64,000 nt of DNA from an uncultured Candidatus Saccharibacteria bacterium (GCA_964423885.1 CAYRGD010000001.1:24156-88155), one strand, 5' to 3'. Positions 31,070-47,505 are shown, numbered from the stretch's first letter. Numbers and translations are program-made. The notes: a model not told the origin generated them from the letters alone.

Positions 31070-31169
31070 GGTTCCCTCCTTACGCGTTGCGGTTGTTGCC
31101 ACTATACCCTACTGCGACTTGTGGATGGCGGGCTTTGCTATACTGGCACCACAGGAACGGAGGGACAGC

Positions 31170-33631: not shown

Positions 33632-36600
33632 ACGCTCGTCTTATTGGCACGATCGCGGCTTCCTTTTTTGTGCTGCTGCTTGGCGCGGGATCTGCTGATG
33701 CAGCCCGAGTTACCGATCGAGTGGGAGGCAGTACTCCGGTTGGTCCTCACTGTGGCGGTCCGGGTGGCTATATGCCGAATGCGCGCTATACGAACTGGGG
33801 CATCACTCAATACGGCAACCCGCCGTATGACTGGGTTCGCTGCTCCGCGCAGCCACCAGCGGGCCGGACGAGCGACGGCCTCGAATACGGCAGTCCTCGG
33901 TATATCAGTCCGGAAATTTTGAGTTACTGGCGCACGAATTCACTTCCGTTTCTGCCCCGTGACTTCGGTGTCTCCGATCCCTATTACTATATAGGCCTCG
34001 ATAGCAACGTCCAGCAGCTTGAGGTCGAAGAGTTGTCCTTTTTGGCATATCGGATCGAGACGTCGACGGAGAGCGGCGGTGGCTCGTCGTGCAATCCGCT
34101 CACCGGTCTTTGCAATCCGTTGATAGGCGGCTTGGGAGGCGGTGGCAAGGGTGGTGGCGGCCGCGTCAAGATCTATCTCCCAGCCACGAGCACGTCGAAA
34201 CTGGTCAACATTGAAACTGGCGAGACATTTTTCAGCGAGACCGCCAATAGCAACCCGCCTCGGGAATCAGGCTCGACCGCGAACGGCTGTTTTCCGTACT
34301 TTGGCAACTCGGTCCGAACCGGGGCTAGTATGTCCAGCTGCTTCAATATCAGCGTTCCCAGGAAGGTAGTGCTTACCAAGCAGCAAAAGAACGACATGTA
34401 TAAAGTCGTGCTGGCCAACGAAGTAACACCGTCGGGCCCTTGGACGCTCGTGTCTGATTGCAGCTATAACACAGGAGTGTTAGGAACACAGGTACAATCC
34501 GGAGGCTCATGCCTATTTCAGCTTGGCGCAAGCGCATCCTATGCTGGGCAGCCAATTGCCTTCGAAGGTAATGGATCCAGTGCTGCCGCAGCCTCGCTCT
34601 GTATGGGCGGTGGCGTCCTGAGCTCGTGCACACCGCAGCCCATTAATAAAGTGTTCGTTACTGGTGGGATGGAGATGAATACCTCCCGCCTGTCGGCATC
34701 GGAAAGTCCACTTGGGACGCTCCCGACCCCGCCACCACCGCCCAAGATCCCGCTCAATAACCCGACCACCGGCTGCTCGAATAATAAGGCGTACGTGACG
34801 CTGACATGGTCGGCACCGTCGGGCGTTGCATTGAAGCCTGGCGCCACCGTGTTCCGTGACAACGTCGCGATCGGTAGCGTGGGCACAGGCACTACCTTTA
34901 CCGACAGCGCTCCGTTGCCTGGTGCGCACGCCTACTTCGTGAGCGGTGCGGATGCGTCCTATACCGTGATTAAGAGCGATCCTAAGACCATTACCACAGC
35001 ACCGGGTTGTATCCCGGCGGGGATCACCGTGGAATTGTCCGGGCCCACGAGCGACCTCAAACGGAACAGCCAGTACCAGTACACGGCAACGGTAAAGAAC
35101 AGTGTGACCGGTGAAACGCTTCCGATCTCATCGGGTGGCACGCCGGGTGGAATGACGACCATTAATTTCGACGGCGAGTCGCGCGGTTTCAAGGGCACCA
35201 ACGCGTGGGCGTCGCGGGGATTGATCGTGGAGTCCGGCATAGCGCCGTCGATTCCTGGCGACGGTGCGTCGCTGGTTGCGGCCGGCAGTGCCGCGTGCCC
35301 GGGGTACGTCGCGCCGTCGTCACCCAGCTACATGATCGGTCACGAACCGCGGTTCGGGGATGCGGCCTGGCTATCGTTCAAGCTGAAATTCGTTGACAGC
35401 AAGGTAGTCGACCAAGCGACGTTCAAGGTGGTGCACGGCGGTACGTCCGCGATCCGGGTACAGGCGATCGATACCGCTGGCCGCGTCATTAGCGACCGGA
35501 CGGTTGGCGGCCCGGGCAGCGGTGTCTGCGTCGGGTCGGCCCAAGTCGTGTCGCTTGCTAAAGGCAGCACGACCGGCATCGCGGAAATCCGCATCGGCCG
35601 CACCGACGAGGCGTCGTTGACCAACGAAGCGCTCCGCACCAACGGGTTCGGCATCGACGACCTGTCGTACAGCCAGCCCCATAGTCCCGGCGAATCGATC
35701 ACCTGGTCGCTCGTCAATAACCGGATCGGATCGCTGTCGCCCACGACCGCCACGCCGACCACCTTGTCGACCGGGTCGAGCTGCGCGATCGGTACTGCCA
35801 CTGACATGGTGGCTGCCACGGTTACGGCCGTAATCGGCGGTCAGACGCTGACCGGTACTGGGTCGCTGCCGGTGGCTATGCAGGATCCGTGTGCCACGCC
35901 GACCGGCACCGCACCGTATGCGGTCGATGACCAGGCTGCGACTACCGTAGGCACTCCGATAGCTATTCCGGTGCTTGCCAACGACGGTGATATCGACAAC
36001 GACCTCGACCCGTCGAGCCTGGCCGTGGCCGCGCAACCGGCCACTGGAACGGGTACGGTCACTAAGACCGGCACGCAGCTGACGTACAACCCGGGTGCGT
36101 TTACTGGTCCGACCGCTTCATTCATGTACCGCATCTGCGATGCGGGCAGCCGCTGCTCGACCGCCAGTGTCCAGGTGACCATCCTACCTGTGCCGACCGA
36201 TATCACCTATGCCTGGTCGGTAGACCGGCCGGATAGTACGCACAAGGAATTCGGCGATTTGGCTGCGGCCAACGTCAACCCGGTCAAATTCACGACCGGC
36301 GAGAACTGTACGCTACTCAACGCCTTCGGTCCGGTGACGCTCAAGCTCGACGTCACGGCGAAATTGAACGGGCAGGCCGTAACCGGCACGGCGTCGAAGA
36401 TCCTGTCCGCTGCCAGCGTCTGCGGCGGTAACATCGTCGGCGATATCTTTGGGGGCGGCAGTGGTACCGGCACTGGTGTGTCCGGCTTGAGCGTTGGGCG
36501 GAACTCGGTAGTGTCGTCGACCGGCAAGGTGAGTGTCGGGCGGAACCAGGAAACCACGAACACCTACAATATCGAGAACTACGACCCGACGTCGGGATTG

Positions 36601-37146
36601 GCTTGGAGCGATGTGCAGGCTAAGTCCGAGTGCACCACGAAGCAGCTTATTACGCAGAAGGCGAAAACGATCGGGAGCTCGATCGGCGGGACGTTCAACT
36701 TGAATCCAGCCGGTGCCAGCAATCCCGAAGGCGGCGTCTGGTATGCGGCGGGCGATCTCACGATCGCGAACGGTACCACCTTCGTGGGCAAGGGCACGAT
36801 CATCGCTGGTGGCAAGGTAACGGTAGCCGGCACGGTGTCATACGGATCAGGTGGCAACTTAGGCGTCATCGCCTGCGGGAGCGAGGCGTCAGCGACCGCG
36901 CCGAAAGCGATCTCGTTCGTAGGCATCCAAGGCAGCAGTATCGTCGGCGCGTACTTCGCCCCGAACGGCACGATCCGGTTCGGTACGAACATCGACCGCG
37001 CAGTGGGTCTGTTCGTAGGTAACGCGTTGCAGCTCGACCCGTCGCTCACGAATCTGACGATCCTCTACGACGAACAGATCACCGCCTCGCCGCCACCTGG
37101 GTTCAGCCAGTCGTTCGTCCCGGCACTCACGGAATCGGGCTCGTAA
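33628..37146 (+). CDS. Giant secreted surface protein (1172 aa): FN3-like, cadherin/Ig-like and C-terminal beta-helix-like domains; candidate pilus-associated adhesin
   Basis: Signal peptide MNARLIGTIAASFFVLLLGAGSADA. Cys-bracketed FN3-like module (CSNNKAYVTLTWSAP...TVFRDNVAIGSVGTGTTFTDSAPLPGAHAYFVSGADASYTVIKSDPKTITTAPGC). Ig/cadherin-like domain (AVDDQAATTVGTPIAIPVLANDGDIDNDLDPSSL...). C-terminal GTIIAGGKVTVAGTVSYGSGGNLGVIACGSEAS...AVGLFVGNALQLDPSLTNLTI resembles ice-binding-like/DUF3494 beta-helices (from memory). ATGA overlap upstream; pilN follows directly. Confidence 0.55.
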   Translation: MNARLIGTIAASFFVLLLGAGSADAARVTDRVGGSTPVGPHCGGPGGYMPNARYTNWGITQYGNPPYDWVRCSAQPPAGRTSDGLEYGSPRYISPEILSYWRTNSLPFLPRDFGVSDPYYYIGLDSNVQQLEVEELSFLAYRIETSTESGGGSSCNPLTGLCNPLIGGLGGGGKGGGGRVKIYLPATSTSKLVNIETGETFFSETANSNPPRESGSTANGCFPYFGNSVRTGASMSSCFNISVPRKVVLTKQQKNDMYKVVLANEVTPSGPWTLVSDCSYNTGVLGTQVQSGGSCLFQLGASASYAGQPIAFEGNGSSAAAASLCMGGGVLSSCTPQPINKVFVTGGMEMNTSRLSASESPLGTLPTPPPPPKIPLNNPTTGCSNNKAYVTLTWSAPSGVALKPGATVFRDNVAIGSVGTGTTFTDSAPLPGAHAYFVSGADASYTVIKSDPKTITTAPGCIPAGITVELSGPTSDLKRNSQYQYTATVKNSVTGETLPISSGGTPGGMTTINFDGESRGFKGTNAWASRGLIVESGIAPSIPGDGASLVAAGSAACPGYVAPSSPSYMIGHEPRFGDAAWLSFKLKFVDSKVVDQATFKVVHGGTSAIRVQAIDTAGRVISDRTVGGPGSGVCVGSAQVVSLAKGSTTGIAEIRIGRTDEASLTNEALRTNGFGIDDLSYSQPHSPGESITWSLVNNRIGSLSPTTATPTTLSTGSSCAIGTATDMVAATVTAVIGGQTLTGTGSLPVAMQDPCATPTGTAPYAVDDQAATTVGTPIAIPVLANDGDIDNDLDPSSLAVAAQPATGTGTVTKTGTQLTYNPGAFTGPTASFMYRICDAGSRCSTASVQVTILPVPTDITYAWSVDRPDSTHKEFGDLAAANVNPVKFTTGENCTLLNAFGPVTLKLDVTAKLNGQAVTGTASKILSAASVCGGNIVGDIFGGGSGTGTGVSGLSVGRNSVVSSTGKVSVGRNQETTNTYNIENYDPTSGLAWSDVQAKSECTTKQLITQKAKTIGSSIGGTFNLNPAGASNPEGGVWYAAGDLTIANGTTFVGKGTIIAGGKVTVAGTVSYGSGGNLGVIACGSEASATAPKAISFVGIQGSSIVGAYFAPNGTIRFGTNIDRAVGLFVGNALQLDPSLTNLTILYDEQITASPPPGFSQSFVPALTESGS

Positions 37147-37215: not shown

Positions 37216-37956
37216 ATGCTTGATTTGAGGGGCACGAATTCGGCACCGAAGCCGGCGCAGCAGCCGGTAGCAGCGGGCGTACCGACGGTCGGCGCGAACG
37301 ACGTCTCGTTCACGCCTGCGCCGCGCCGTTCGTCGCCCATTTTGGAAACCGGCAGCGCCGGCCCTGGCAAGACGATCCAAGGGGTAGGGGCGGGGCGCAC
37401 CAACGACCCGATCGTGATGGTCGTCGCCTTGGTGTCCGTGGCGCTCGCGGGCGTGACCGGGCTCGTTGCCAGCTACTTGTCTGTGCAGCAGGCCTCGCGC
37501 CTGACCACGGCCACGAACCAGTACGATTCCTTGGTGGCGCAGCGGACCACCGGCACCACCGGCGATAACCTCAAGCTTATCGAAACCACGGCCGCGCAGC
37601 TCACCGCCTTGCAAGGCGCGACGGCCACGAGTACGCCGTGGGCCGGCCTGCTCGACGTCTTCGCGAGCCAGGTGCCGGGCGCGATCCAGCTCAAGAGCAG
37701 CACCTTCGATTCCAGAACCAGCCTCGTGACGATTACCGGCAGCGGCAACGCCTACGAAGACGTCGCTCATCTGGCGGCGGCGCTCGGCGCGTCCGACCGG
37801 TTCAAGGACGTGGCGCTCCAGTCGGCCGCGTCGGTCGTGACCGACACCTCGTCGCAGATCGACTTCTCGCTCGCGGCCACGTACGTGCCGGTGGCGCCTG
37901 CCGCCCAAGCGGCCGCGTCAGGCACCGGTACCGCTACCCAAGGAGCCACGCAATGA
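37216..37956 (+). CDS. pilN: Type IV pilus assembly protein PilN-like
   Basis: Cytoplasmic N-terminus, single TM (IVMVVALVSVALAGVTGLVA), periplasmic coiled-coil and ferredoxin-like region. GGAGGGG ribosome-binding site. The context is pilO-pilB-pilT-pilC. Confidence 0.6.
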   Translation: MLDLRGTNSAPKPAQQPVAAGVPTVGANDVSFTPAPRRSSPILETGSAGPGKTIQGVGAGRTNDPIVMVVALVSVALAGVTGLVASYLSVQQASRLTTATNQYDSLVAQRTTGTTGDNLKLIETTAAQLTALQGATATSTPWAGLLDVFASQVPGAIQLKSSTFDSRTSLVTITGSGNAYEDVAHLAAALGASDRFKDVALQSAASVVTDTSSQIDFSLAATYVPVAPAAQAAASGTGTATQGATQ

Positions 37957-38546
37957 GCACCGACGCCCAGCCTGCGAGCGCACGCTCGAACGATATCCTG
38001 TGGACGGCCGTCGGTCTGTTGGGCGTAGCTGCCATGGGCTACTTCTACGTCGCGCCCGCCATCGCCAAGCTGAAAGAATCCCGGGCTGCCGCCCAGGCCA
38101 AGCAGAACGACGTTACGGCGATGACCGACCAGATCGCACAGATCGACCAGATCGGCCAGCAGCTGGCCGCCCAAACGGAAAGCCTGAAGCTGTTGAACCT
38201 GGCAGTGCCGGCCACCCCGGCCTTCGACCAATTGCTCATGGCGCTGGCTGCGATGGCGTCTCAGTCGGGTGTCGAACTGTCCACGGTCACGCCGGCGGTC
38301 GGCAGTACCGGCGCGTCGACCCCGTCGGCATCGGTGTCGGTCAAAGGGACGTATACCGGGATCCACCTGTTCCTCGAAAACGCGGCGAAGAACATCCGCC
38401 CGCTCACGATCACGAACCTGGGGCTCGCGGCCGCGACGGTCGAAGGCCAGGCCACGCCGCTCATTACTGCCACCATGACCATGACCGCCGCGCAGGCCGT
38501 GCTGCCCACCGATCCGGCCGCGACGCCCGAAGGGAGCCAGCAATGA
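37953..38546 (+). CDS. pilO: Type IV pilus assembly protein PilO-like
   Basis: Start MSTDAQP (ATGA overlap with pilN). TM (ILWTAVGLLGVAAMGYFYVAPAI), then coiled coil (AKLKESRAAAQAKQNDVTAMTDQIAQIDQIGQQLAAQTESLKLL), then a C-terminal domain. Confidence 0.6.
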   Translation: MSTDAQPASARSNDILWTAVGLLGVAAMGYFYVAPAIAKLKESRAAAQAKQNDVTAMTDQIAQIDQIGQQLAAQTESLKLLNLAVPATPAFDQLLMALAAMASQSGVELSTVTPAVGSTGASTPSASVSVKGTYTGIHLFLENAAKNIRPLTITNLGLAAATVEGQATPLITATMTMTAAQAVLPTDPAATPEGSQQ

Positions 38547-38800
38547 CCGCGCAACAGACCACGATCGCTGCCAGCGTCGCGCTCCTTGCCGTGCTGCTCG
38601 GGTTCGGTATCTGGCTCATTGCATTGTCGAACCCGTCTCCCGAACTTGTTGCCGCCAAGGAACAGCCGCCCCAGCCGCTGCCGAGCTTGAGCGTCGACCA
38701 GCTACAGCAGCAGGCAGGGAGCCGCCAGATTTTCGGCGCGCTGCCGATTGATCTCAACCTGGCCGCGCTCGGCCGTCTCGACCCGTTCGCGAACCGGTAG
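38543..38800 (+). CDS. Small single-TM pilus-cluster protein (PilP-like?)
   Basis: MTAQQTTIAASVALLAVLLGFGIWLIAL...; ATGA overlap with pilO; 85 aa. Confidence 0.45.
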   Translation: MTAQQTTIAASVALLAVLLGFGIWLIALSNPSPELVAAKEQPPQPLPSLSVDQLQQQAGSRQIFGALPIDLNLAALGRLDPFANR

Positions 38801-38809
38801 GGGAACAGT

Positions 38810-41305
38810 ATGGCACAAGACCCGGCGAACCTTCCGGCCGACCAGCTTGCCGATTTGGCATCGGTCACGGCTGCCGCCAAACAGCTCGGCTTGGACATGG
38901 CCCGCGTCGACGCGTCGAGCCCTGAACCGGCGGCGCTGAAGCTCATCGCCAAGCCCTTGGCGCTCGAACACCGCCTGGTGCCGCTGAAGCTCGACGGCAA
39001 ATCCCTGTACGTGGCGGTGTCCGACCCGTCGCTGCTGACCAAACCCGCGCCTGCGTTCCTGCAGGAACTCAAAGCCCAGGGTTACGTGCTCAAGCTGTTT
39101 CTGACCCCGGCCGCCGATTTTACGGCCGCGGTTACGGCCTACGACGCCCCGGCACCTGTGCCAGCTGCGCCCGAGCCCGCCGGTATCCCGGCTGCCCCGG
39201 CGACGGTGCCGCCCGTGGCACCGGCCGTTCCCACGCCAGCTCCCGTACCTGCGCCCGCCGCACCGCCGGTGATGCCGTCTGTCCCGGCTGCGGTGCCGAC
39301 ACCGCCTGCGCCTGCGGCCCCTGTACCTGTGCCGGCCTCGGTTATCTCGTCGCAGATCCCGGCCGTCGACCTCATGACGCGGCAGATCCCAAAGGCGACG
39401 CTCGAACGGTTCCCCGAAGACGTGGCGACCAAGTACCAGATCGTGGTCTTCGAACTGTCGGCCGACGGCAAGGAAGCGTCCGTAGCGGCGGTCAAACCCG
39501 ACGACCAGCGGATCCGGGATATCTTGAAATACGTCGAAGAGCGCAATGCGATCCGCATCCATTTGTACCGCACCGATCCCAAGGGGTTCGCCGCGGCGCT
39601 CAAGGGCTACCAGGTAGGCGTACTTGCGCCGAAGCCGTCGGTCGCGCCTGCTCCGGCACCGGTTCCCGCCTCGGCACCCGTGCCATTGGCCCGTGCCTCG
39701 GCCGACAAGATCGCCGCCGTCGCCGCCAAGCCGATGGCTGCCGTACCGCCGAAGCCTACGGCCCCGCTTCCGCCCGTACCGCCCGCCGCGGTGCCGCAAC
39801 CCGCGCCGATCGGAGGCACGATGCCCGCGCCCGGTGCCGTACCCGCACCGGTCCGCCCAGCTACTCCGGCCACTCCTGCGCCGACACCTGCCCAGCCGAA
39901 ACCGCTACCAGCGGCCCAACAACCTGCGTCCGACGACACCACTCCCACGATCACGCTCGCCGAACTCCAGAGCCAGGTCGGCCTGGCGGTCAATACCGAC
40001 ACCGAATCGGGCCAGGCCGCGATGGCCCAGCTCGTGAGCGGCGACGAACAGGCGAACCTTGACCAGACGCTCGGGACGCCGGTCAACGACTTCGCCGCGT
40101 TCGAGACGGTCATGAAGACCGGCCTTATTCCCAAGATCGTCGCGGCCATCGTCTACTACGCCTCGGTATTGCTCGCCTCGGACATCCACATCGAGCCGAG
40201 CGAGACCGCGCTCCGTGTCCGTTTCCGCATCGACGGCAAGCTGCGCAATGTCGTCAAATTGCCGGTCGAGCTCCATGCGCCGCTCACCTCGCGCATCAAG
40301 ATCCTGTCGAAATTGAAAATCGACGAGAACCGCCTGCCGCAAGACGGCCGGTTCAACGTCCAGGTCGCCAGCCACCAGGTCGACCTGCGCGTCTCGACGC
40401 TGCCCACGATCCACGGCGAAAAGGTGGTGATCCGCCTGCTCGACAAGACCGCGGGCGTGAAGCAGCTGTCGGCGCTGGGCTTGAACGGCATGAACCTGAA
40501 GCGCGTCAGCGAGGCGGTCACCAAACCGTACGGCATCATTCTGGTCACCGGCCCGACCGGCTCGGGCAAGTCGACCACGCTCTACGCGATGCTCACCGAA
40601 ATCAACCGGCCCGACGTGAACATCATCACGCTCGAAGACCCGGTGGAATACCAGGTCGAGGGGATCAACCAGACCCAAGTGAAGCCCGCGATCGGCTACA
40701 CCTTCGCCGACGGCCTGCGGTCGATCCTGCGTCAGGACCCGAACGTGATCATGGTCGGCGAAATCCGTGACTCGGAAACGGCCGGCCTGGCCACCCAGGC
40801 GGCGTTGACCGGCCACTTGGTGCTGTCGACGCTCCACACCAACAACGCGGCCGGGGCGATCCCGCGGCTCATCGACATGGACGTCGAGCCGTTCCTTATC
40901 GCCTCGTCGCTCGACATTATTATCGCCCAGCGCCTAGTGCGCCGCCTGTGCGAACAGTGCAAGGTGCCGGTGACGCCGCCGGCCGAAATCCTGGCCGAAA
41001 TCACGAAAGAACTCGACCAGTCGCCGGTGGCCGAGTTGAAGAACTTGGCCAAGCGCCCGATGGCGTTCTACGGACCCAAGGGCTGCGACCAGTGCGCCGA
41101 CGGCTACCAGGGACGGCTCGGTATCTACGAGGTGATCGCCATGTCCGAATCGATCGCGCAGCTGGCGATCAAGGAAGCCTCGGGATCGGTGATCGAGGAA
41201 ACCGCCCGCAAAGAGGGGATGATGAGTATGCGCCAAGACGGCATCCTGAAGGCGCTCGAAGGCCAGACCTCGATCGACGAAATCCTGCAGGCGACATCCG
41301 AGTAA
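38810..41305 (+). CDS. pilB: Type IV pilus assembly ATPase PilB (GspE family) with duplicated N-domain and two Pro/Ala-rich linkers
   Basis: Two GSPII_E N-terminal-like domains, each followed by about 80-110 aa of PAPVPA-type low complexity. C-terminal ATPase with Walker A VTGPTGSGKSTTLYAML, Asp/His boxes, and a tetracysteine motif (CEQC...CDQC). Confidence 0.9.
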   Translation: MAQDPANLPADQLADLASVTAAAKQLGLDMARVDASSPEPAALKLIAKPLALEHRLVPLKLDGKSLYVAVSDPSLLTKPAPAFLQELKAQGYVLKLFLTPAADFTAAVTAYDAPAPVPAAPEPAGIPAAPATVPPVAPAVPTPAPVPAPAAPPVMPSVPAAVPTPPAPAAPVPVPASVISSQIPAVDLMTRQIPKATLERFPEDVATKYQIVVFELSADGKEASVAAVKPDDQRIRDILKYVEERNAIRIHLYRTDPKGFAAALKGYQVGVLAPKPSVAPAPAPVPASAPVPLARASADKIAAVAAKPMAAVPPKPTAPLPPVPPAAVPQPAPIGGTMPAPGAVPAPVRPATPATPAPTPAQPKPLPAAQQPASDDTTPTITLAELQSQVGLAVNTDTESGQAAMAQLVSGDEQANLDQTLGTPVNDFAAFETVMKTGLIPKIVAAIVYYASVLLASDIHIEPSETALRVRFRIDGKLRNVVKLPVELHAPLTSRIKILSKLKIDENRLPQDGRFNVQVASHQVDLRVSTLPTIHGEKVVIRLLDKTAGVKQLSALGLNGMNLKRVSEAVTKPYGIILVTGPTGSGKSTTLYAMLTEINRPDVNIITLEDPVEYQVEGINQTQVKPAIGYTFADGLRSILRQDPNVIMVGEIRDSETAGLATQAALTGHLVLSTLHTNNAAGAIPRLIDMDVEPFLIASSLDIIIAQRLVRRLCEQCKVPVTPPAEILAEITKELDQSPVAELKNLAKRPMAFYGPKGCDQCADGYQGRLGIYEVIAMSESIAQLAIKEASGSVIEETARKEGMMSMRQDGILKALEGQTSIDEILQATSE

Positions 41306-41314
41306 GGAGCGAGC

Positions 41315-42388
41315 ATGGACACCGACCGCACCCTGTCACCCGCGATCCAGCAGATTTTCGCGTTCGCTGCCGAACACGGCGCGTCCGACGTCCATATCAA
41401 GGTGGACGTGCCGCCCGTGGTGCGCATCGACGGCAAGCTGCGGTCGATCCCGGATATGCCGAGCTATACCGCCGACCAGGCCCGGGCCGACACGTTGTCG
41501 ACCTTGAGCCAGCACCAGCAGCAAGTGATCGCCGAGCAGCGCGAGCTCGACTTCTCGTTCTACTTCGGCGCCGTCCGCGTCCGCGCCAACGTCTACTTCG
41601 AAAAAGACAATCTGGTCGGCGCGTACCGCCTCATTCCCGATAAGCTCCGCACGGTGCAGGAGCTGGGCCTGCCGCCGATCATCGAGGACATGACCAAGGT
41701 GCGCCAAGGCCTGTTTATCGTCGCCGGCCCGACCGGCCACGGCAAATCGACCACGCTGGCCGCCATGGTCAACCTCATCAACCAGTCGCGGTCCGAAAAT
41801 ATCATCACGATCGAAGACCCGATCGAGTACGTGTTCCAGAATGCCCGGAGCATCATCTCGCAACGCGAGGTCGGTTCGGACACGCTGAATTTCGAGCACG
41901 CGCTCCGCAGCTCCTTGCGCCAAGACCCCGACGTCATTTTGGTGGGCGAGATGCGCGACCTCGAAACGATCGCCGCCGCGATTACGCTCGCTGAAACCGG
42001 CCACCTGGTGCTGACCACGCTCCACACCAACAACGCTGCCCAAACCGCCGACCGGATCCTGGACGTGTTCCCGCCGCACCAGCAGGCCCAGGTGCGGTCG
42101 CAATTGGCCAACATCCTGCTCGGCATCGTGTCCCAGCGGCTGCTGCCCAAGTTGAGCGGCGGCCGGATCGCCGCGGCCGAGATCCTGGTGGCCAACACCG
42201 CCGTGCGCACCACGATCCGCGAGGGCAAGACCCACCAATTGAACAACATCATCCAGACCAGCGCGTCCGAAGGCATGATCAGCCTCGACGACTCGCTGGC
42301 GGCGCTCGTGACCCGCGGCGAAGTGAGCCTCGACGACGCGCTCACCTGGGCGATCGACCCGAAGCACCTGAAATTGAAGCTCTACTAG
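41315..42388 (+). CDS. pilT: Twitching motility (retraction) ATPase PilT
   Basis: Walker A AGPTGHGKSTTLAAMV, ITIEDPIEYV, LVLTTLHTNNAAQT; about 357 aa as typical for PilT; AAGGAG ribosome-binding site. Confidence 0.9.
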   Translation: MDTDRTLSPAIQQIFAFAAEHGASDVHIKVDVPPVVRIDGKLRSIPDMPSYTADQARADTLSTLSQHQQQVIAEQRELDFSFYFGAVRVRANVYFEKDNLVGAYRLIPDKLRTVQELGLPPIIEDMTKVRQGLFIVAGPTGHGKSTTLAAMVNLINQSRSENIITIEDPIEYVFQNARSIISQREVGSDTLNFEHALRSSLRQDPDVILVGEMRDLETIAAAITLAETGHLVLTTLHTNNAAQTADRILDVFPPHQQAQVRSQLANILLGIVSQRLLPKLSGGRIAAAEILVANTAVRTTIREGKTHQLNNIIQTSASEGMISLDDSLAALVTRGEVSLDDALTWAIDPKHLKLKLY

Positions 42389-42389
42389 T

Positions 42390-43436
42390 ATGCAGCTGCC
42401 GTTCCAGAACCGCATCGGCGTCAAGAACAAGGCGTTCTTAGCGCGCCAGATTTCCACCATGATCGCGAGCGGTCTGCCGCTCAACAAGGCGATCGCCATT
42501 TTGGCCGACCAGGAACGCAACCCGCGGATCAAGGAAATCCTGCTCGGGGTGCTCGAAAACCTCGAAGCCGGCGCGCCGTTCTCGACCGCGGCTGCCAAGT
42601 ATCCCGCGCTCTTCGACAAGATTTTCATCAACATCGTGGTCTCGGGCGAAACGGTGGGCAAACTGTCGGACGTATTGGGGCAGCTGGCCGACCAGTACGA
42701 GAAGGACGGCGAGTTCCGGGGCAAGATCAGCGGCGCCTTCGCGTACCCGGCGTTCATCATCGTGGCGATGCTGATCGTCGGCGCGGTCATGATGGTCTAT
42801 ATCGTGCCGCAGCTGCAGTCGATCTTCGACGAAGCCCACGCGACCCTGCCGTTGCCTACGCGGATCATTATCGGCTTGAGCACGTTCCTGCGCGACTACT
42901 GGTTCTTGGCGATCGCGGGCGTGGTCGGGGCGGTGGTGTTCGTGCAGGCCTACCTGCGCTCGGCGGCCGGCAAGCGGCTGCTCGACAACATCCAGATCCA
43001 CATTCCGGGCGGCGTCGGGGTCGAAATCTACATGACCCGCCTGGCGCAGACGCTTGGGATGCTGATCCAATCCGGTACGCCGATCATCGAAGCTCTGAAC
43101 GTTACCGCCGACGTACTCGACAACGTCTACTACGCCGAACTGCTCCGGAGCGCGGTCGGGCAGGTGAAGCGCGGTATCCCGCTGTCGGTGCCGTTGGGCG
43201 AAAGCACGTACTTCCCGCCGATCGTGAGCCAGATGGTATCGGTAGGCGAACAGACCGGCCAGCTCGACAAGATCCTCTTGAACCTGGGCGCCTACTACCA
43301 GGGCGAGGTCGACGACAAATTGAAGAACATCTCGGCGCTCGTCGAACCGATCATCATCGTGGTGGTGGGTATCGGCGTCGGGTTCCTGGTCTACTCGATC
43401 CTCATCCCGATCTACAATATCGCGCAGATCCAATGA
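42390..43436 (+). CDS. pilC: Type IV pilus platform protein PilC (GspF family)
   Basis: Two T2SSF repeats, each with the GxxLxxAL...P motif (AGAPFSTAAAKYPALFD; GIPLSVPLGESTYFPPIVSQMVSVGEQTG), and three TM helices. Confidence 0.85.
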   Translation: MQLPFQNRIGVKNKAFLARQISTMIASGLPLNKAIAILADQERNPRIKEILLGVLENLEAGAPFSTAAAKYPALFDKIFINIVVSGETVGKLSDVLGQLADQYEKDGEFRGKISGAFAYPAFIIVAMLIVGAVMMVYIVPQLQSIFDEAHATLPLPTRIIIGLSTFLRDYWFLAIAGVVGAVVFVQAYLRSAAGKRLLDNIQIHIPGGVGVEIYMTRLAQTLGMLIQSGTPIIEALNVTADVLDNVYYAELLRSAVGQVKRGIPLSVPLGESTYFPPIVSQMVSVGEQTGQLDKILLNLGAYYQGEVDDKLKNISALVEPIIIVVVGIGVGFLVYSILIPIYNIAQIQ

Positions 43437-43894
43437 CACGCCGGCGCTGGCAACACGGGTTCACGCTGCTCGAGGTGCTGGTCGTGGTGTCGGTGATCGG
43501 GATCCTGGCCGGGGTCGTGGCGGTCAACCTCAACTCGGCCCGGGTGCTCGCCCGCGATGCGCGGCGCAAGCAGGACGTGCAGCAGATCCAGTCGGCGCTC
43601 GAGCTCTACTACAACGACCACCGCGCCTACCCGGCCGGCGCTGCCAGCCTGGGCACCGAACTCAAGCAGTACCTGTCAACGATCCCCAAGGATCCGTCGA
43701 CGCTTGAAGAGTACACCTACGTCTCCGGCGGCGGTGCGACGGTCAACTGCACCCAGTGGTACGCGGTCACGTACCGGCTCGAAGACAAACGCGACGCGAT
43801 CTTCGGGCAGACCAGGCAGGTCAAAGGGTGCGACAAGTCGCGCCAATCCGACCAACAGACCGGCGACGTGGTCGTGGGCGCGTCGTTGCCGTAG
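43433..43894 (+). CDS. Type IV pilin (prepilin with N-terminal methylation motif)
   Basis: MTRRRWQHG|FTLLEVLVVVSVIGILAGVVAV: class-III signal peptide with G|F cleavage site, Glu+5 and hydrophobic helix. ATGA overlap with pilC. Confidence 0.85.
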   Translation: MTRRRWQHGFTLLEVLVVVSVIGILAGVVAVNLNSARVLARDARRKQDVQQIQSALELYYNDHRAYPAGAASLGTELKQYLSTIPKDPSTLEEYTYVSGGGATVNCTQWYAVTYRLEDKRDAIFGQTRQVKGCDKSRQSDQQTGDVVVGASLP

Positions 43895-43983
43895 AGCTGT
43901 CCACAGCTTGCGGCAGTGGAATTTGTGCGACAATGGCGACAAGACGCTCCGAGCGGAGCGATAGGAGGTACCGGATGTTGCAA

Positions 43984-44478
43984 CGTATGCGAGCGATGAG
44001 GAAAGACGGCGGCTTCACGCTGCTTGAGCTCTTGGTAGTGGTGGCGATCATCGCCATTTTGGCGACGCTCATCCTGGCCAACCTGAACCGCGCCCGCCAG
44101 CAGGCGAACGACGCGAAGGTGCAGGCTGAGACGAAAGCGGTGTCTGATGCCGTCCAGCTGTATATGACTGATCCGAGCAACCCGACCACCGCTATCACCT
44201 ATAGTGGCGTACTTCCTGGTGCAAGCAGTACTGTATTGTCCGGCTTGACGACTGCGTCGGCAGGATCGGCTGCACTGCTCCAGAAGCTCCCGACGCATCC
44301 GGCGCAAGGAAAGACGTATTATTATATCGGTCAAGTGAATAGCACGTCGGGCACGTTCGAGTACGTCGTTTGCGGCCCGCTTGTGAGCAAGGTGGGGTAC
44401 TTCTACGTCAAAAACGGCGTGGCGAATACGATCAACAACGTCGCCACCTGCCCGACAGCGTTTGCTTCCTATAACTAG
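43984..44478 (+). CDS. Type IV pilin (second paralog)
   Basis: AGGAGG ribosome-binding site 5 nt upstream; MLQRMRAMRKDGG|FTLLELLVVVAIIAILATLILANL. The C-terminal region has paired Cys (CGPL...CPTAF), a disulfide-loop-like feature. Confidence 0.8.
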   Translation, partial: RMRAMRKDGGFTLLELLVVVAIIAILATLILANLNRARQQANDAKVQAETKAVSDAVQLYMTDPSNPTTAITYSGVLPGASSTVLSGLTTASAGSAALLQKLPTHPAQGKTYYYIGQVNSTSGTFEYVVCGPLVSKVGYFYVKNGVANTINNVATCPTAFASYN

Positions 44479-44482
44479 TGGA

Positions 44483-45301
44483 ATGAGTCAGTCGAGCATG
44501 CAAGCGGCCCTTCTGTGGCCGCTTGCTGCGTTCTTGGGACTGTTCGTCGGGTCGTACCTCAACGTGGTCGCCTGGCGGTGGTACCGAAGCGACCAGGAAT
44601 CGCCGCAACGGCTCACGAGCCGGAGCAAGTGCCCGCACTGCGGCAAGGTTCTTGGCTGGCGCGAGCTCGTGCCGGTCGTGAGCTTTCTCGTACAGCGCGG
44701 CCGGTGCGCGGGCTGCGCGACGCCGCTTAGTATCCGTTACCCGCTCGCCGAGCTCGGCACCGCGGCGGTCTTCGGCCTAGCCGTGGCCCGGTACGGCATC
44801 CATCCGCAGTCGGCGCTACTGCTCGTCATCGCATCGATCTTTGTCATGATCGCCTTGGTCGACGCCGAAACCCAGCTTATTCCGGATCGGCTGTCGCTGG
44901 CGGCGCTTATCGTGAGCCTCGGCGCGATCCTGGTACTGGGGGTACCCAACCTGATCGGCCGGCCAGTGACGCCGGGCGTGTTCCCGTTCGAGCACGGGGT
45001 AGCGGGCGGTGCCATCGCGGCCGGGATCCTGGGCGCGATCGTGCTCGGTACGCGCGGTCGCGGGATGGGGATAGGGGATATCAAGCTCGGAGCGGTGCTG
45101 GGGTTGAGCCTGGGCGGGCCAGCGACATTGCTGGCGCTCTTCACCGCGTTCGTGACCGGCGCGGCTGCGGGCTTACTGCTCATCCGCTCGAAGCACGCCA
45201 CGCTCAAGACCGCGATCCCGTTCGGCCCGTTCCTGGTGCTAGGCTGGCTGGTTGCCGCCCTGTGGGCGACGCCGGTGATCGCATGGTATACTGGCATCTA
45301 A
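44483..45301 (+). CDS. pilD: Prepilin peptidase PilD (A24 family)
   Basis: Zinc-binding CPHCG...CAGCA N-terminal loop, catalytic Asp boxes (ALVDAET..., GMGIGDIKLGAVLG), 6-8 TM helices. Start taken at the ATG right after the pilin stop (alternatives 44462 and 44498). Confidence 0.85.
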   Translation: MSQSSMQAALLWPLAAFLGLFVGSYLNVVAWRWYRSDQESPQRLTSRSKCPHCGKVLGWRELVPVVSFLVQRGRCAGCATPLSIRYPLAELGTAAVFGLAVARYGIHPQSALLLVIASIFVMIALVDAETQLIPDRLSLAALIVSLGAILVLGVPNLIGRPVTPGVFPFEHGVAGGAIAAGILGAIVLGTRGRGMGIGDIKLGAVLGLSLGGPATLLALFTAFVTGAAAGLLLIRSKHATLKTAIPFGPFLVLGWLVAALWATPVIAWYTGI

Positions 45302-45314
45302 CCGAAGGAGGGTC

Positions 45315-45800
45315 ATGCAGGTACTGAAACGCGGGTTCACCCTGGTCGAATTGCTGGTGGTCATCTCGATCATCGGCATCCTAGTGGGCGTCGTGGCAGT
45401 GAACGCCAATACCGCCCGCCGCCAAAGCCGCGACGCCAAGCGCAAGGCCGACCTGCAGAACGTAGCCGGCGCGCTTGAGCTGTACCGGACGACGAAGCAC
45501 ACCTATCCCACCGGCGTAACCTACGGCGCATCGTTGCGCACCGCCCTGGACGCGTTCACGAGCAATGTCCCGTCCGATCCTTCCGCGGGCGTTGCCAACG
45601 ACGGCAACTACGCGAACGGCGGCTACTACTACGCGTCGGACGGTACCAGGTTCGTGCTCGATGCCCGGCTGGAAAACGCCGCCGAGACGCCGACCATCAG
45701 CATCGCCAATCCGACGTCGCCTGCCGCTACCGGGTTCTACCAGACGGGCACGTACACCGACAGTTCCGGAAAAGCCCATTACCGCGTCGCCGGGCCGTGA
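45315..45800 (+). CDS. Type IV pilin (third paralog)
   Basis: GAAGGAGGG ribosome-binding site; MQVLKRG|FTLVELLVVISIIGILVGVVAVN prepilin leader and helix. Confidence 0.85.
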   Translation: MQVLKRGFTLVELLVVISIIGILVGVVAVNANTARRQSRDAKRKADLQNVAGALELYRTTKHTYPTGVTYGASLRTALDAFTSNVPSDPSAGVANDGNYANGGYYYASDGTRFVLDARLENAAETPTISIANPTSPAATGFYQTGTYTDSSGKAHYRVAGP

Positions 45801-45801
45801 C

Positions 45802-46335
45802 ATGGCGTCGGCGAGGGGCTTTAGCTTGGTCGAGCTGCTCATATCGATCGCGATCATCACGGTCTTGCTCGGTGTCGGCGTACCGGCGTTCCGCAACTAC
45901 GGCCAGGTAGCCGAGCTCAACCAGGCTGCGACCGACATCCAGCTCGCGCTCCTGCAAGCGCACAACCTGGCGCTCGCGCCCGAAACCGGCAAGCCGGCCG
46001 AGATCGACTACTACGGCGTGGCGTTCACGCAGGATCCCCAGCTCCGCCAATCGTTTACGGTCGTGCGCGGGCAGAAGGGTACGGCGAACATCGTCACCCC
46101 GTCCGACCTGCCGAACCCCGACCGGCACGAGCTGCCGGCCGGCATCACGGTGTCACCGATGCCGTTCACGGTCTACTACAAGGTCGGGCCGACCGGCGGC
46201 GTCATCATTACGCCTGTAAGCGGGAACGCGACGGTATCCGTTACGTCGAGCCGTCTGGCCGAGGGGCGCAACAAGGCGACGCTGACCGTCAACGCCGTGA
46301 CCGGCCAGGTATCGCTCACGAAGGCGGGGCAATGA
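45802..46335 (+). CDS. Minor pilin / pseudopilin (FimT/GspH-like)
   Basis: Start MASARG|FSLVELLISIAIITVLLGVGVPAF: prepilin-type N-terminus with a beta-rich C-terminal region. The track ORF from 45565 is an extension. Confidence 0.75.
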   Translation: MASARGFSLVELLISIAIITVLLGVGVPAFRNYGQVAELNQAATDIQLALLQAHNLALAPETGKPAEIDYYGVAFTQDPQLRQSFTVVRGQKGTANIVTPSDLPNPDRHELPAGITVSPMPFTVYYKVGPTGGVIITPVSGNATVSVTSSRLAEGRNKATLTVNAVTGQVSLTKAGQ

Positions 46336-46901
46336 CGGCCCGGCGCGGCTTCGGCTTGCTCGAAGTGGTACTGGCGACCGGTATCCTGTCGCTCGTGGTC
46401 GGCGCCTCGACCGCGCTCATCCGCGGCTCGCTCCGACGGACCGCGCTCGCGGCCGACCGCGCGATCGCCATGAACCTGGCCCAGGAGTCGATCGAGCAGC
46501 TGCGCAGTGCCCGTGATTCCACCTACATCGACAACGACCCGGCCACGAACTGGGACACGTTCCTTGCGGTCTCGCGCGCGGACGGTGCGCTCACAGCCGA
46601 CGCCGATACGTGCGCCGATGCCAAGACGCTCACGCCGCCACCGGCCAGTCCGATCGGATCCAACACCAAGTGGACGTTGGCATCCGGCTGCCAACGCAGC
46701 CTAGTACTGGGTGACCGGACGTTCCAGCGCGAAATCTACATCCTGCCCGGCCCGGCCGGCATGGTACGGGCAGCAGGATTGCCGACGTCCGTGGCTGCGA
46801 CCGACGTTGTCCGCAAAGTACATGTGATCGTGCGCTGGGATAACAACCAGCAGGCGGTCGAGGCCAGTACCTACCTTACTAACTGGCGGTCAGGCTTATG
46901 A
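46332..46901 (+). CDS. Minor pilin (PilV/GspI-like)
   Basis: MTARRG|FGLLEVVLATGILSLVVGA prepilin N-terminus; ATGA overlap. Confidence 0.75.
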   Translation: MTARRGFGLLEVVLATGILSLVVGASTALIRGSLRRTALAADRAIAMNLAQESIEQLRSARDSTYIDNDPATNWDTFLAVSRADGALTADADTCADAKTLTPPPASPIGSNTKWTLASGCQRSLVLGDRTFQREIYILPGPAGMVRAAGLPTSVAATDVVRKVHVIVRWDNNQQAVEASTYLTNWRSGL

Positions 46902-47482
46902 CCGGGCAGCGCGGCTACACGCTGATCGAAGTCCTGGTCGCCTCGGCGATGTTCGTCGGCGTGATGGTGATCGGGGTCTCGTCGTTTTCGAGCGTCAACC
47001 GGGTCAACGAGCAGATCGAGACGACGCGGAAACTTACCCAAACCGGCACCTTCGTCATGGAAACCCTGGCCCGCGACATCCGTACCGCCACCGGCTACGC
47101 GGTGCCGCCGAGCCGTTCGTTAACCAGTAAACCATTCGCGTTCGTAGCGGTGAACGGCCAGCAGGGGATTCTGGTGCAGACCTGCCCTGACGGCGGCTGC
47201 AAAACGGCTGCCGACGTCGTCGCCAAGACCTACGCTTGGCAACGCGGCCAGCAGCGCGCAGCCGACGGCACGTTGCTTGCCGGCCAGCAGACATTGCTGC
47301 CCGCCGATGTGGCTATGACCGATTTCAGTGTGACCGGCAAAGACTTCACGACGCTCACGATCCAGCCCTACGCGACGATCGAGTTCACCGTGGCCGACAA
47401 GGACTGTCTCTTGGCAGGCCGCACCGATTGCGCCAAACAGACGTTCCGCACCACGGTCACCAGCCTGGTCTACGACCGGTAG
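46898..47482 (+). CDS. Minor pilin (PilW/GspJ-like)
   Basis: MTGQRG|YTLIEVLVASAMFVGVMVIGV prepilin N-terminus; ATGA overlap. Confidence 0.75.
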   Translation: MTGQRGYTLIEVLVASAMFVGVMVIGVSSFSSVNRVNEQIETTRKLTQTGTFVMETLARDIRTATGYAVPPSRSLTSKPFAFVAVNGQQGILVQTCPDGGCKTAADVVAKTYAWQRGQQRAADGTLLAGQQTLLPADVAMTDFSVTGKDFTTLTIQPYATIEFTVADKDCLLAGRTDCAKQTFRTTVTSLVYDR

Positions 47483-47505
47483 GGATCTGGTATACTCGCG
47501 CTCGC

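What the first reader, a model, noticed from the sequence alone, without database searches (positions are those of the whole stretch)
37216..47482. Complete secretin-less type IV pilus locus with three major-pilin paralogs, four ATPase/platform genes, and no pilM or pilQ
The genes are contiguous: pilN, pilO, a small TM protein, pilB, pilT (retraction), pilC, pilin, pilin, pilD, pilin, and three minor pilins, mostly with ATGA/GTGA coupling. There is no secretin (pilQ) and no actin-like pilM anywhere in the window. This fits a monoderm envelope, as do the sortase signals found elsewhere. pilT implies a retractile, twitching-capable pilus. Three distinct major-pilin paralogs with different C-terminal regions suggest antigenic or functional diversification.
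Basis: partly seen in the sequence, partly recalled or inferred. Interest (0 to 1): 0.55.

Follow-up and report, generated by a model that had tools for sequence, protein, structure and literature searches.

The report
PilM-less type IV pilus operon, Patescibacteria
This is the ordinary, secretin-free type IV pilus operon of an ultrasmall (CPR/Patescibacteria) bacterium, but of a recurring sub-type that lacks the usual coupling protein PilM and instead has an altered PilN tail and an enlarged assembly ATPase.

Summary
The genes lie on the + strand in this order: pilN, pilO, an 85-aa membrane protein, pilB, pilT, pilC, pilin, pilin, pilD, pilin, three minor pilins. All are intact and mostly translationally coupled. 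No PilM or secretin is detectable anywhere in the 64 kb.

The organism is not a classical Gram-positive. It is a high-GC Patescibacteria (CPR) bacterium; the closest PilT and synteny matches are MAGs labelled Berkelbacteria or Saccharibacteria. Secretin-less, PilT-containing pili are already described for CPR, so the headline claim is known biology.

The less ordinary part is the missing PilM.
- All 59 related loci with a short PilB (about 590 aa) carry pilM next to a PilN that starts M-I-x-I-N-L-L-P.
- The window and at least eight independent relatives lack pilM.
- In those loci PilN starts differently. In the window and in 51 of the 150 best database representatives it starts with a near-invariant M-L-D-[ILV].
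- Their PilB is 750–840 aa, with a second N-terminal GSPII/MshEN domain.

I infer a rewired ATPase–platform coupling, which is untested. A pilM elsewhere in the genome is not excluded.

The three pilin paralogs are ancient, with one-to-one orthologues in a relative, so they do not look like antigenic variants. A surface-protein gene upstream (33628–37146) belongs to the module.

The parts
31047..31598 (+). Small N-terminally anchored membrane protein, paralog of 33209-33631. First gene of a duplicated 'small TM + surface protein' pair.
   Evidence: 32% identical to the L116 139-aa protein that sits in the same position. Has a 4-nt overlap with the next gene.
31595..32017 (+). DUF2784-like polytopic membrane protein. 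Link to the pilus is uncertain.
   Evidence: 39% identical to L116 5850-6248, which carries PF10861.
32014..33192 (+). 393-aa secreted protein, a truncated paralog of the N-terminal part of the large surface protein.
   Evidence: 32% identical to residues 61-376 of the L116 1224-aa protein. No Pfam hit.
33209..33631 (+). Small membrane-anchored protein that precedes the surface protein.
   Evidence: An equivalent roughly 140-150-aa TM protein precedes the surface protein in L116 and L127. A TGCTATACT -10-like element lies just upstream.
33628..37146 (+). 1172-aa secreted, adhesin-like protein with an Ig/cadherin-like domain and a conserved C-terminal beta-rich domain ending PPPGF..LP.L.E. It is the conserved first large gene of the pilus module.
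   Evidence: Big_9 and Cadherin hits, and a weak DUF7305 hit (25.6 against 27 bits). The C-terminal domain is shared with the gene directly upstream of pilN in L004, L116-L120, L121, L125, L126 and L127.
37216..37956 (+). PilN-like bitopic protein. It has a 63-aa cytoplasmic tail beginning MLDLRGTN and lacks the INLLP PilM-binding motif.
   Evidence: PF05137, E 8e-8. Tail comparison.
37953..38546 (+). PilO
   Evidence: PF04350, E 3e-8, and weak GspM similarity. ATGA overlap with pilN.
38543..38800 (+). 85-aa single-pass membrane protein of a family confined to CPR pilus loci, always found between pilO and pilB.
   Evidence: Present in 60 of the related loci. No Pfam or PDB match. The equivalent TM7x_00430 is unnamed in PMC12206443.
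38810..41305 (+). PilB extension ATPase, long form (831 aa). It has two N-terminal GSPII/MshEN domains joined by Pro/Ala-rich linkers, and retains the CxxC...CxxC zinc motif.
   Evidence: T2SSE 445.7 bits and MshEN in two stretches. The NCBIfam PilB and GspE models match only from about residue 386-407 onward. Alignment and domain start positions.
41315..42388 (+). PilT retraction ATPase
   Evidence: TIGR01420, 434 bits against a cutoff of 319. 85% identical to the L116 orthologue.
42390..43436 (+). PilC platform protein (348 aa). It lacks about the first 55-70 residues of the canonical PilC/GspF models.
   Evidence: T2SSF in two stretches. GspF and PilC models align from model position 56-72.
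43433..43894 (+). Pilin A, GspG-like, with a C-terminal Cys pair. It is the positional equivalent of TM7x pilA1 and the likeliest major pilin.
   Evidence: N_methyl and T2SSG. Subthreshold GspG hit. Overlaps pilC by 4 nt and is followed by an 80-nt gap with hairpins. TM7x gene order.
43975..44478 (+). Pilin B, major-type size, with a C-terminal Cys pair.
   Evidence: N_methyl 35.3 bits. 49% identical to its positional orthologue in L116.
44483..45301 (+). PilD prepilin peptidase
   Evidence: A24_N_bact 90.7 bits and Peptidase_A24 43.4 bits.
45315..45800 (+). Pilin C, GspG-like, without cysteines.
   Evidence: N_methyl. 59% identical to its positional orthologue in L116.
45802..46335 (+). Minor pilin 1, GspH/FimT-like N-terminus.
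   Evidence: N_methyl 27.8 bits. Subthreshold GspH and ppdA hits.
46332..46901 (+). Minor pilin 2, PilV/GspI-like.
   Evidence: Subthreshold TIGR02523 PilV hit, 33 bits. Prepilin motif RG|FGLLE.
46898..47482 (+). Minor pilin 3, GspJ/ComGF-like N-terminus.
   Evidence: N_methyl 22.0 bits. Prepilin motif RG|YTLIE.

Best explanation
The locus is the main type IVa-like pilus operon of a high-GC Patescibacteria (CPR) bacterium. It is homologous in gene order to 'T4P locus one' of Nanosynbacter lyticus TM7x.

Proposed mechanism:
- PilD cleaves six prepilins.
- The hexameric ATPase PilB, acting through the PilC platform and a PilN/PilO membrane frame (plus a CPR-specific 85-aa membrane protein), polymerises pilin A, possibly with B and C. 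Polymerisation starts on a primer of three minor pilins.
- The fibre leaves the cell without a secretin because there is no outer membrane.
- PilT depolymerises it, giving retraction. By analogy the uses would be twitching, attachment to a host cell and possibly DNA uptake.
- The secreted 1172-aa protein encoded just upstream is a conserved partner, most likely a pilus-associated or surface adhesin.

The locus belongs to a recurring sub-type that has no PilM. In this sub-type the PilN N-terminus has changed from M-I-x-I-N-L-L-P to other forms; in the window and many relatives it is a near-invariant M-L-D-[ILV] followed by a long variable tail. PilB has gained a second N-terminal GSPII/MshEN domain.

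I infer that the ATPase now couples to the membrane frame directly, by the PilN tail docking on the enlarged PilB N-terminus, instead of through PilM.

Shown: gene identities, synteny, absence of PilM from the window and from the relatives' flanks, and the three-way correlation.
Inferred: retraction, the role of the adhesin, and the direct PilN-PilB docking.
For: Gene identities.

CPR origin and synteny.

The homologous TM7x locus order is pilM1-N1-O1-(00430)-B1-T-C1-A1. In TM7x the PilT-containing thick pilus is tied to twitching.

PilM is absent:
- No Pfam hit in the window.
- An HMM of 60 PilM sequences finds nothing at E<=10 in the window, nor in L116, L120, L121, L123, L125, L126 and L127.
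- The same HMM does find PilM in 59 Saccharibacteria-type loci and in other phyla down to E about 1e-12.

The correlation:
- Every locus with PilM has a PilB of 583-606 aa and a PilN that begins with the NL[LI]P motif about 20 aa before the TM.
- Every PilM-less locus has a PilB of 749-837 aa, with the ATPase N2 motif starting at residue 375-465 instead of 196-212, and a PilN without NLLP.

In an exhaustive HMMER search, 51 of the 150 best cluster representatives start M(49)-L(51)-D(49)-[ILV](51), while the rest of the tail is variable.

Published work shows that PilM is the coupler between PilB/PilF and PilN (PMC6325625).
Against: - Only 64 kb of the genome was seen, and the relatives' flanks are at most 10 kb each side. 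A relocated or strongly diverged pilM is not excluded.
- In one Berkelbacteria genome (L002) even pilN and pilO are not next to pilB, so dispersal of pil genes does occur.
- The strong conservation of MLD[ILV] shows there is a partner but does not say which one.
- Multiple GSPII domains also occur in Thermus PilF, which does use PilM.
- Function (retraction, adhesion) is extrapolated from TM7x, whose machinery proteins are only about 50-55% identical.
Confidence: 0.55

Rival explanations
1. This is an ordinary CPR type IVa pilus operon whose pilM has simply moved elsewhere in the genome, possibly with a diverged PilN-binding groove. PilM still couples PilB and PilT to PilN, and the MLD[ILV] peptide is its new ligand.
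For: - Only 64 kb was inspected.
- The pil genes are dispersed in L002: no pilN or pilO lies upstream of pilB.
- TM7x has several pil loci.
- The first four residues, M-[IL]-[DE]-[IL], resemble the start of the canonical M-I-E-I-N-L-L-P, and intermediate forms exist (MIDINLLG, MIDIDVS).
- The near-invariant MLD motif implies a conserved cytoplasmic partner.
Against: - pilM is adjacent in all 59 loci where it was detected (59 of 59), and absent from all of at least nine non-NLLP loci, within 8-37 kb of flanking DNA.
- The N-L-L-P residues are lost.
- PilB changes in concert, which a simple relocation does not predict.
Confidence: 0.3
2. The operon builds a short competence or secretion pseudopilus (ComG- or T2SS-like) used mainly for DNA uptake, rather than a long retractile surface pilus.
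For: - The pilins score best, though below threshold, against GspG and ComGC models.
- dprA, recR and topA lie 6-10 kb downstream.
- CPR pili have been proposed to serve DNA uptake (PMC6744442).
Against: - A PilT-family ATPase sits in the operon, and PilN and PilO are present.
- There is no ComEA/ComEC, GspD, GspC or GspL in the window.
- The gene order matches TM7x locus one, which builds a visible thick pilus linked to twitching.
- DNA uptake and a retractile pilus are not mutually exclusive.
Confidence: 0.1
3. The locus is a decaying remnant that no longer makes a pilus, the loss of PilM having inactivated it.
For: PilM is essential in the model T4aP systems (introduction of PMC6325625).
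Against: - All 13 genes are intact, with high third-position GC.
- Gene order and sequence are conserved across relatives at 45-85% identity and out to Berkelbacteria-like MAGs.
- The N-terminal PilN motif is under strong constraint.
Confidence: 0.03

Closest known systems
T4P locus one (thick, PilT-dependent pilus, T4P-1) of Nanosynbacter lyticus TM7x (Grossman et al. 2025, PMC12206443)
   Same: Same gene order from pilN onward: pilN-pilO-small TM gene-pilB-pilT-pilC-first pilin...pilD plus further pilins. No secretin. PilT, PilB and PilC are 50-56% identical to Saccharibacteria homologues. A large secreted protein is encoded just upstream.
   Different: TM7x-type loci have pilM, a PilN that starts MIEINLLP, and a 586-aa PilB with one GSPII domain and no zinc-binding cysteines. 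The window has no pilM, a PilN that starts MLDLRGTN with a 63-aa tail, and an 831-aa PilB with two GSPII domains and the CxxC..CxxC motif.
Type IVa pili of monoderm Firmicutes (Clostridium, Streptococcus sanguinis). This comparison rests on my own knowledge and was not tested here.
   Same: Secretin-less T4aP with PilB, PilT, PilC, PilD, PilN, PilO and several pilins in one operon.
   Different: Those systems keep PilM. The CPR-specific 85-aa protein and the PPPGF-domain surface protein are not known from them.
Thermus thermophilus PilF, the traffic ATPase with three GSPII domains (PMC6325625)
   Same: An extension ATPase whose N-terminus carries more than one GSPII/MshEN domain, and which keeps the zinc-binding tetracysteine motif.
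   Different: Thermus has PilM, which binds PilF and the PilN N-terminus, and it has a secretin. In the window lineage the extra domain coincides with the absence of PilM.
Type II secretion GspE-GspL-GspM coupling. The GspE-GspL contact rests on my own knowledge and was not tested here.
   Same: The ATPase N-terminal domain docks on a bitopic membrane protein related to PilN and PilM. PilO shows weak GspM similarity, and the pilins are GspG-like.
   Different: GspL carries a full PilM-like cytoplasmic domain, whereas the window PilN tail is 63 aa and looks disordered. There is no GspD, GspC or GspK, and PilT is present.

Membership tests
Type IVa pilus machinery (T4aP) | Prepilin peptidase of family A24 (PilD) | tested here: met
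   A24_N_bact 90.7 bits and Peptidase_A24 43.4 bits, both above cutoff.
Type IVa pilus machinery (T4aP) | Pilins with a class III signal peptide (G at -1, hydrophobic helix, E at +5) | tested here: met
   Six genes carry the motif. N_methyl is above cutoff for five of them and at 18.8 bits, below the 21.2 cutoff, for minor pilin 2.
Type IVa pilus machinery (T4aP) | PilB-type extension ATPase and a PilC platform protein with two T2SSF domains | tested here: met
   T2SSE 445.7 bits and T2SSF in two stretches. Both PilB and PilC fall below the NCBIfam equivalog cutoffs; for PilB, 524 bits against 676.
Type IVa pilus machinery (T4aP) | PilT-family retraction ATPase | tested here: met
   TIGR01420, 434 bits against a cutoff of 319.
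Type IVa pilus machinery (T4aP) | PilN and PilO alignment proteins | tested here: met
   PF05137 at 32.7 bits (cutoff 22.8) and PF04350 at 34.4 bits (cutoff 22).
Type IVa pilus machinery (T4aP) | Actin-like PilM that binds the PilN N-terminal INLLP peptide | tested here: not met
   No PilM in the 64 kb by Pfam or by a 60-sequence PilM HMM at E<=10. PilN lacks N-L-L-P. The rest of the genome was not available.
Type IVa pilus machinery (T4aP) | Secretin PilQ (with PilP), a feature of diderm systems only | tested here: not met
   No Secretin hit in any large ORF of the window. The small TM protein shows no PilP similarity. This is expected for CPR (PMC6744442).
Patescibacteria/CPR T4P 'locus one' (TM7x T4P-1 type) | Gene order pilM-pilN-pilO-small TM-pilB-pilT-pilC-pilA...pilD | tested here: inconclusive
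   The order is identical from pilN onward. pilM is missing, and a surface-protein gene abuts pilN instead.
Patescibacteria/CPR T4P 'locus one' (TM7x T4P-1 type) | Closest sequence relatives are Patescibacteria pilus proteins | tested here: met
   The top 80 PilT matches among the genomes of 185,579 species are almost all MAGs labelled Saccharibacteria, Berkelbacteria or Patescibacteria, at 51-62% identity.
ComG competence pseudopilus | ComGA/GB/GC-GG operon without PilT, PilN or PilO, working with ComEA and ComEC | tested here: not met
   PilT, PilN and PilO are present. ComGA, ComGB and ComGC models score far below cutoff. No ComEA or ComEC in the window. dprA is nearby.
Type II secretion system | GspD secretin, GspC, GspL and GspK alongside GspE, GspF and GspG | tested here: not met
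   No GspD, GspC, GspL or GspK hits. GspE, GspF and GspG models score below cutoff. PilT is present.
Tad/Flp pilus | CpaF/TadA ATPase, TadB/C, TadZ and short Flp pilins | tested here: not met
   The TadA-type model scores only 47-48 bits against a cutoff of 373. The pilins are 153-194 aa with GFxLxE N-termini, not Flp-like.

The most novel reading that the evidence does not exclude
A large clade of Patescibacteria builds a type IVa pilus without any PilM. The ancestral PilM-binding peptide of PilN has been replaced by a four-residue N-terminal motif, M-L-D-[ILV]. That motif docks directly on an extra GSPII/MshEN domain acquired by PilB, and so defines a new, minimal way of coupling the motor ATPase to the membrane platform.
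Probability: 0.3. Interest if true: 0.6.

Novelty: new variant of a known kind. Interest (0 to 1): 0.4.

Why it matters
Type IV pili are thought to be central to how CPR bacteria attach to and move on their hosts, and PilM is regarded as the universal coupler between the motor ATPases and the PilN/PilO frame.

If a widespread CPR sub-type works without PilM, it would show that this coupling can be rebuilt with a short peptide and an extra ATPase domain. It would also give a simpler machine for structural study, and a sequence marker (an MLD-type PilN together with a long PilB) for sorting CPR pilus systems.

The headline of the original finding, a secretin-less T4P with PilT, is already textbook for this group and does not matter much by itself.

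Tried and rejected
1. The 85-aa membrane protein as a PilP analogue, suggested by its C-terminal D/NPF motif. Scanning 34 family members against Pfam at E<=10 and a profile against PDB sequences gave only noise from the TM helix. The idea was dropped.

2. Fold of the C-terminal domain of the surface protein. AlphaFold2 with a 3-sequence alignment gave a mean pLDDT of 41, too poor for a fold search, so none was run. The DUF7305 hit is below the cutoff (25.6 against 27 bits), and no paper mentions that family.

3. A metagenome scan with PilB returned only three short contigs from close relatives, and otherwise unrelated PilB types.

4. The word-indexed protein searches found very few relatives of PilN, of the PilB N-terminus or of the surface-protein domain. 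Only the exhaustive HMMER search was informative.

5. Looking for per-class PilM conservation in the supplements of PMC12206443. The stored tables hold only genome metadata.

6. The sigma-70 promoter and terminator scan was no better than shuffled sequence.

7. A fused PilN-tail/PilB chain for AlphaFold was considered and not attempted. No alignment could be supplied for a chimera, and single-sequence models are unreliable.

8. Several long 'ORFs' without Pfam hits (19807-20562, 20662-21750, 62984-64000, all minus strand) are Arg-rich wrong-frame artefacts of the high GC content.


Full report
**1. What is in the sequence**

The window is about 65% GC, so mechanical ORF lists are noisy. I used third-position GC and start-site inspection to define thirteen contiguous + strand genes between 37216 and 47482.

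Pfam and NCBIfam identify them as follows.

| Coordinates | Gene | Evidence |
|---|---|---|
| 37216-37956 | PilN | above Pfam cutoff |
| 37953-38546 | PilO | above Pfam cutoff |
| 38543-38800 | 85-aa single-pass membrane protein | no family |
| 38810-41305 | PilB, 831 aa | T2SSE plus two MshEN/GSPII stretches |
| 41315-42388 | PilT | passes TIGR01420, 434 against 319 bits |
| 42390-43436 | PilC | two T2SSF stretches |
| 43433-43894 | pilin A | N_methyl |
| 43975-44478 | pilin B | N_methyl |
| 44483-45301 | PilD | A24_N plus A24 |
| 45315-45800 | pilin C | N_methyl |
| 45802-46335 | minor pilin 1 | prepilin N-terminus |
| 46332-46901 | minor pilin 2 | prepilin N-terminus |
| 46898-47482 | minor pilin 3 | prepilin N-terminus |

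A six-frame motif scan finds exactly six prepilin N-termini in the whole window, all in this locus. Seven of the twelve junctions are 4-nt overlaps or 1-nt gaps.

**2. PilM and secretin**

Pfam scans of about 30 other large ORFs across the window give the following genes: murD, ftsW, murG, murC, recJ, sodA, radA, a PBP1, holB, PKD and SBBP surface proteins, ileS, rodA/ftsW, nusG, dprA, topA, recR, cysS and prfB.
- None of these is a PilM, secretin, ComEA, ComEC, GspL or TadZ.
- A profile built from 60 PilM proteins of related loci finds nothing in any six-frame ORF of at least 50 aa in the window, even at E<=10.
- The same profile does detect PilM in other phyla, down to E about 1e-12.

**3. 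Whose genome is it**

The exact proteins occur on Logan contigs of run SRR12712864 and on an NCBI contig of 292,834 bp.

A PilT scan against one genome for each of 185,579 species returns almost only MAGs labelled Saccharibacteria, Berkelbacteria or Patescibacteria. The best matches are 60-62% identical.

Synteny extends beyond the pilus genes.
- RNase H and ileS follow the last minor pilin in Berkelbacteria-like MAGs as well (L004 and L121).
- The upstream block of M50 protease, zinc ribbon, holB and a TPR protein is shared with L003 and L120.

The host is thus a CPR/Patescibacteria bacterium with an unusually high GC content; relatives carrying the same locus are 41-54% GC. It has no close sequenced species in the genome set.

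**4. What is already known**

Méheust et al. 2019 (PMC6744442) describe pilins, PilB, PilT, PilC, PilN, PilO, a 'GspL-domain PilM' and PilD as widespread and co-localised in CPR. They explicitly note the absence of PilQ.

Grossman et al. 2025 (PMC12206443) dissected TM7x. Locus one is pilM1-pilN1-pilO1-(TM7x_00430, unnamed)-pilB1-pilT-pilC1-pilA1...pilD. [quoted passage not shown]

The window's gene order from pilN onward is the same. The 'secretin-less retractile T4P' reading is therefore right, but it is not new for this lineage.

**5. The unusual part: a PilM-less sub-type**

I compared 80 genome loci with further contigs found through PilN and PilB relatives.

Loci with PilM (59 of them):
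- The order is pilM-pilN-pilO-small TM-pilB.
- PilB is 583-606 aa.
- PilN starts M-[IV]-x-[ILF]-N-L-[LI]-P, and its TM helix begins at about residue 20.

Loci without PilM:
- These are the window, L116-L119, L120, L121/L122, L123, L125, L126, L127, L003 and L004. They cover flanks of up to 10 kb in the relatives and 37 kb in the window.
- pilN is preceded directly by a secreted-protein gene.
- PilN has no N-L-L-P and carries a 25-78-aa tail before the TM.
- Where pilB is on the contig, PilB is 749-837 aa. The conserved SD[IV]H.E start of the N2 domain sits at residue 375-465 instead of 196-212, which means a second GSPII/MshEN domain.
- Most of these long PilBs keep the CxxC...CxxC zinc motif, which the short Saccharibacteria PilBs have lost.

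An exhaustive HMMER search with a PilN profile against 1.84 billion cluster representatives gave 1888 hits. Among the best 150, only 21 have N-L-L-P before the TM. Fifty-one begin M-L-D-[ILV], with M in 49 of 51, L in 51 of 51, D in 49 of 51 and I/L/V in 51 of 51. The remainder of the tail is hypervariable.

The window's PilN begins MLDLRGTN. Within its closest relatives it has a second conserved patch, RRSSPILE.

A near-invariant four-residue motif at the extreme N-terminus of an otherwise free-evolving cytoplasmic tail is what a docking peptide looks like. It occupies exactly the place of the PilM-binding peptide in canonical PilN.

**6. Mechanistic reading**

Published work on Thermus shows that PilM binds the N-terminus of PilN and physically couples the ATPase PilF to the PilMNO platform. 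It also shows that a GSPII domain of PilF is needed for stimulation by PilMN (PMC6325625).

Three changes go together here: PilM is gone, the PilN peptide is changed, and PilB has gained a GSPII domain. From this I infer that in this sub-type PilB docks on the PilN tail directly. That step is inference only.

The main rival is that pilM has moved elsewhere and co-evolved with the MLD peptide. I could not scan the rest of any of these genomes, and one Berkelbacteria genome shows that pil genes can be dispersed (L002).

I put the PilM-less coupling model at about 0.55, counting the secure general assignment. I put relocation at about 0.3.

**7. Pilins**

Pilins A, B and C are 153-167 aa. They score best, below threshold, against GspG and ComGC. 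A and B have a C-terminal cysteine pair, and C has none.
- Each has a positional one-to-one orthologue in L116, at 49, 49 and 59% identity. PilT is 85% identical between the same two organisms.
- The pattern of two pilins, then pilD, then another pilin is kept in Berkelbacteria-like loci.
- The paralogs are therefore old and separately maintained. That argues for division of labour rather than antigenic variation.
- Pilin A overlaps pilC, is followed by an 80-nt hairpin-containing gap, and occupies the position of TM7x pilA1. It is the best candidate for the major subunit.
- The three minor pilins resemble GspH/FimT, PilV/GspI and GspJ/ComGF at their N-termini. This looks like the usual priming set, minus a GspK/PilX-like member.

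**8. The locus is larger than reported**

The 1172-aa secreted protein at 33628-37146 has Ig/cadherin-like repeats. It also has a C-terminal domain of about 170-240 aa with the signature GAYFAPNG..I.F...G.F.G....I.YD....PPPGF...LP.L.E. That domain occurs in the gene immediately upstream of pilN in every PilM-less locus with enough sequence.

In PilM-containing Saccharibacteria loci, the gene upstream of pilM is likewise a 560-1437-aa protein, ending ...ELPP[RIV][YFL].

A small membrane-anchored protein precedes the surface protein (33209-33631). In the window this pair is partly duplicated at 31047-33192. I regard the surface protein as part of the pilus module, probably an adhesin. Its fold could not be predicted with confidence (pLDDT 41).

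The 85-aa membrane protein between pilO and pilB is also a conserved, undescribed CPR family.

**9. Verdict**

The finding is real and correctly read as a type IV pilus operon. Its headline features are already known for CPR bacteria.

The added value is the definition of a recurrent PilM-less architecture with three correlated traits: no PilM, an MLD-type PilN tail and a double-GSPII PilB. I did not find this described in the literature that I could search.

I rate it a new variant of a known kind, interest 0.4. It would rise to about 0.6 if PilM is shown to be absent genome-wide and the PilN-PilB contact is confirmed.

Noticed in passing
window 38543-38800, and the gene between pilO and pilB in about 60 related loci: A 72-97-aa single-pass membrane protein family (MKKxD-TM-...FNxxxxNPT..I.IG...N..PF) is conserved in CPR pilus loci, both with and without PilM. 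It has no Pfam or PDB match, and its TM7x member (TM7x_00430) is unnamed in the literature.
   Followed up: partly
window 33196-33208, 37175-37190 and 47485-47500: TATACT -10-like hexamers, two of them with an upstream TG (TGCTATACT and TGGTATACT), sit in three of the few intergenic gaps, 5-30 nt before the start codons of the 33209 gene, pilN and the RNase H gene. They may be extended -10 promoters with very short leaders.
   Followed up: no
window 43895-43974: The only sizeable gap inside the pilus operon (80 nt, after pilin A) contains two small hairpins, AGCTGT-CC-ACAGCT and GCTCC-GAGC-GGAGC. It could be an attenuator or processing site that raises pilin A transcript levels.
   Followed up: no
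window 31047-37146: There is a partial tandem duplication of a 'small TM protein + large surface protein' pair. 31047 and 33209 are paralogs. 32014-33192 matches the N-terminal part, and 33628-37146 the rest, of a single 1224-aa protein in relative L116. This block has a lower GC content (0.58-0.62).
   Followed up: partly
window 29207-31102 (- strand): A PKD-repeat surface protein ends in LAQTG, then a hydrophobic stretch, then RRPFHS, which is a sortase-type sorting signal. It is conserved in position in relatives L116 and L120.
   Followed up: no
window 53505-57273: dprA (DNA-processing protein A), topA and recR lie 6-10 kb downstream of the pilus operon. There is no comEA or comEC in the window. 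This is compatible with, but not evidence for, a link between the pilus and DNA uptake.
   Followed up: partly
window 59224-61074: Two adjacent secreted proteins (329 and 286 aa) with no Pfam match lie in a patch of lower GC (about 0.60). One has an Asn/Gln-rich C-terminus.
   Followed up: no
whole window, compared with L116, L120, L121, L123, L125, L126: The window is about 65% GC, whereas relatives carrying the same syntenic locus are 41-54% GC. This is a steep compositional shift within one CPR lineage. It is also visible as Pro/Ala-rich linkers in PilB and PilN.
   Followed up: partly
window 1094-6810 and 50768-51865: The cell-wall cluster murD-ftsW-murG-murC-ftsQ-like ends without ftsA or ftsZ; a bPH-domain gene and recJ follow. 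A second FtsW/RodA paralog sits right after ileS. The class A PBP gene (16046-19813, minus strand) has a roughly 400-aa extension before its transglycosylase domain.
   Followed up: no
L125 3660-6173 and the short PilBs of L009 and L062: The tetracysteine zinc motif of PilB is kept in most long PilBs but is absent in L125 and in all the short Saccharibacteria PilBs examined. The motif has therefore been lost more than once in CPR.
   Followed up: no
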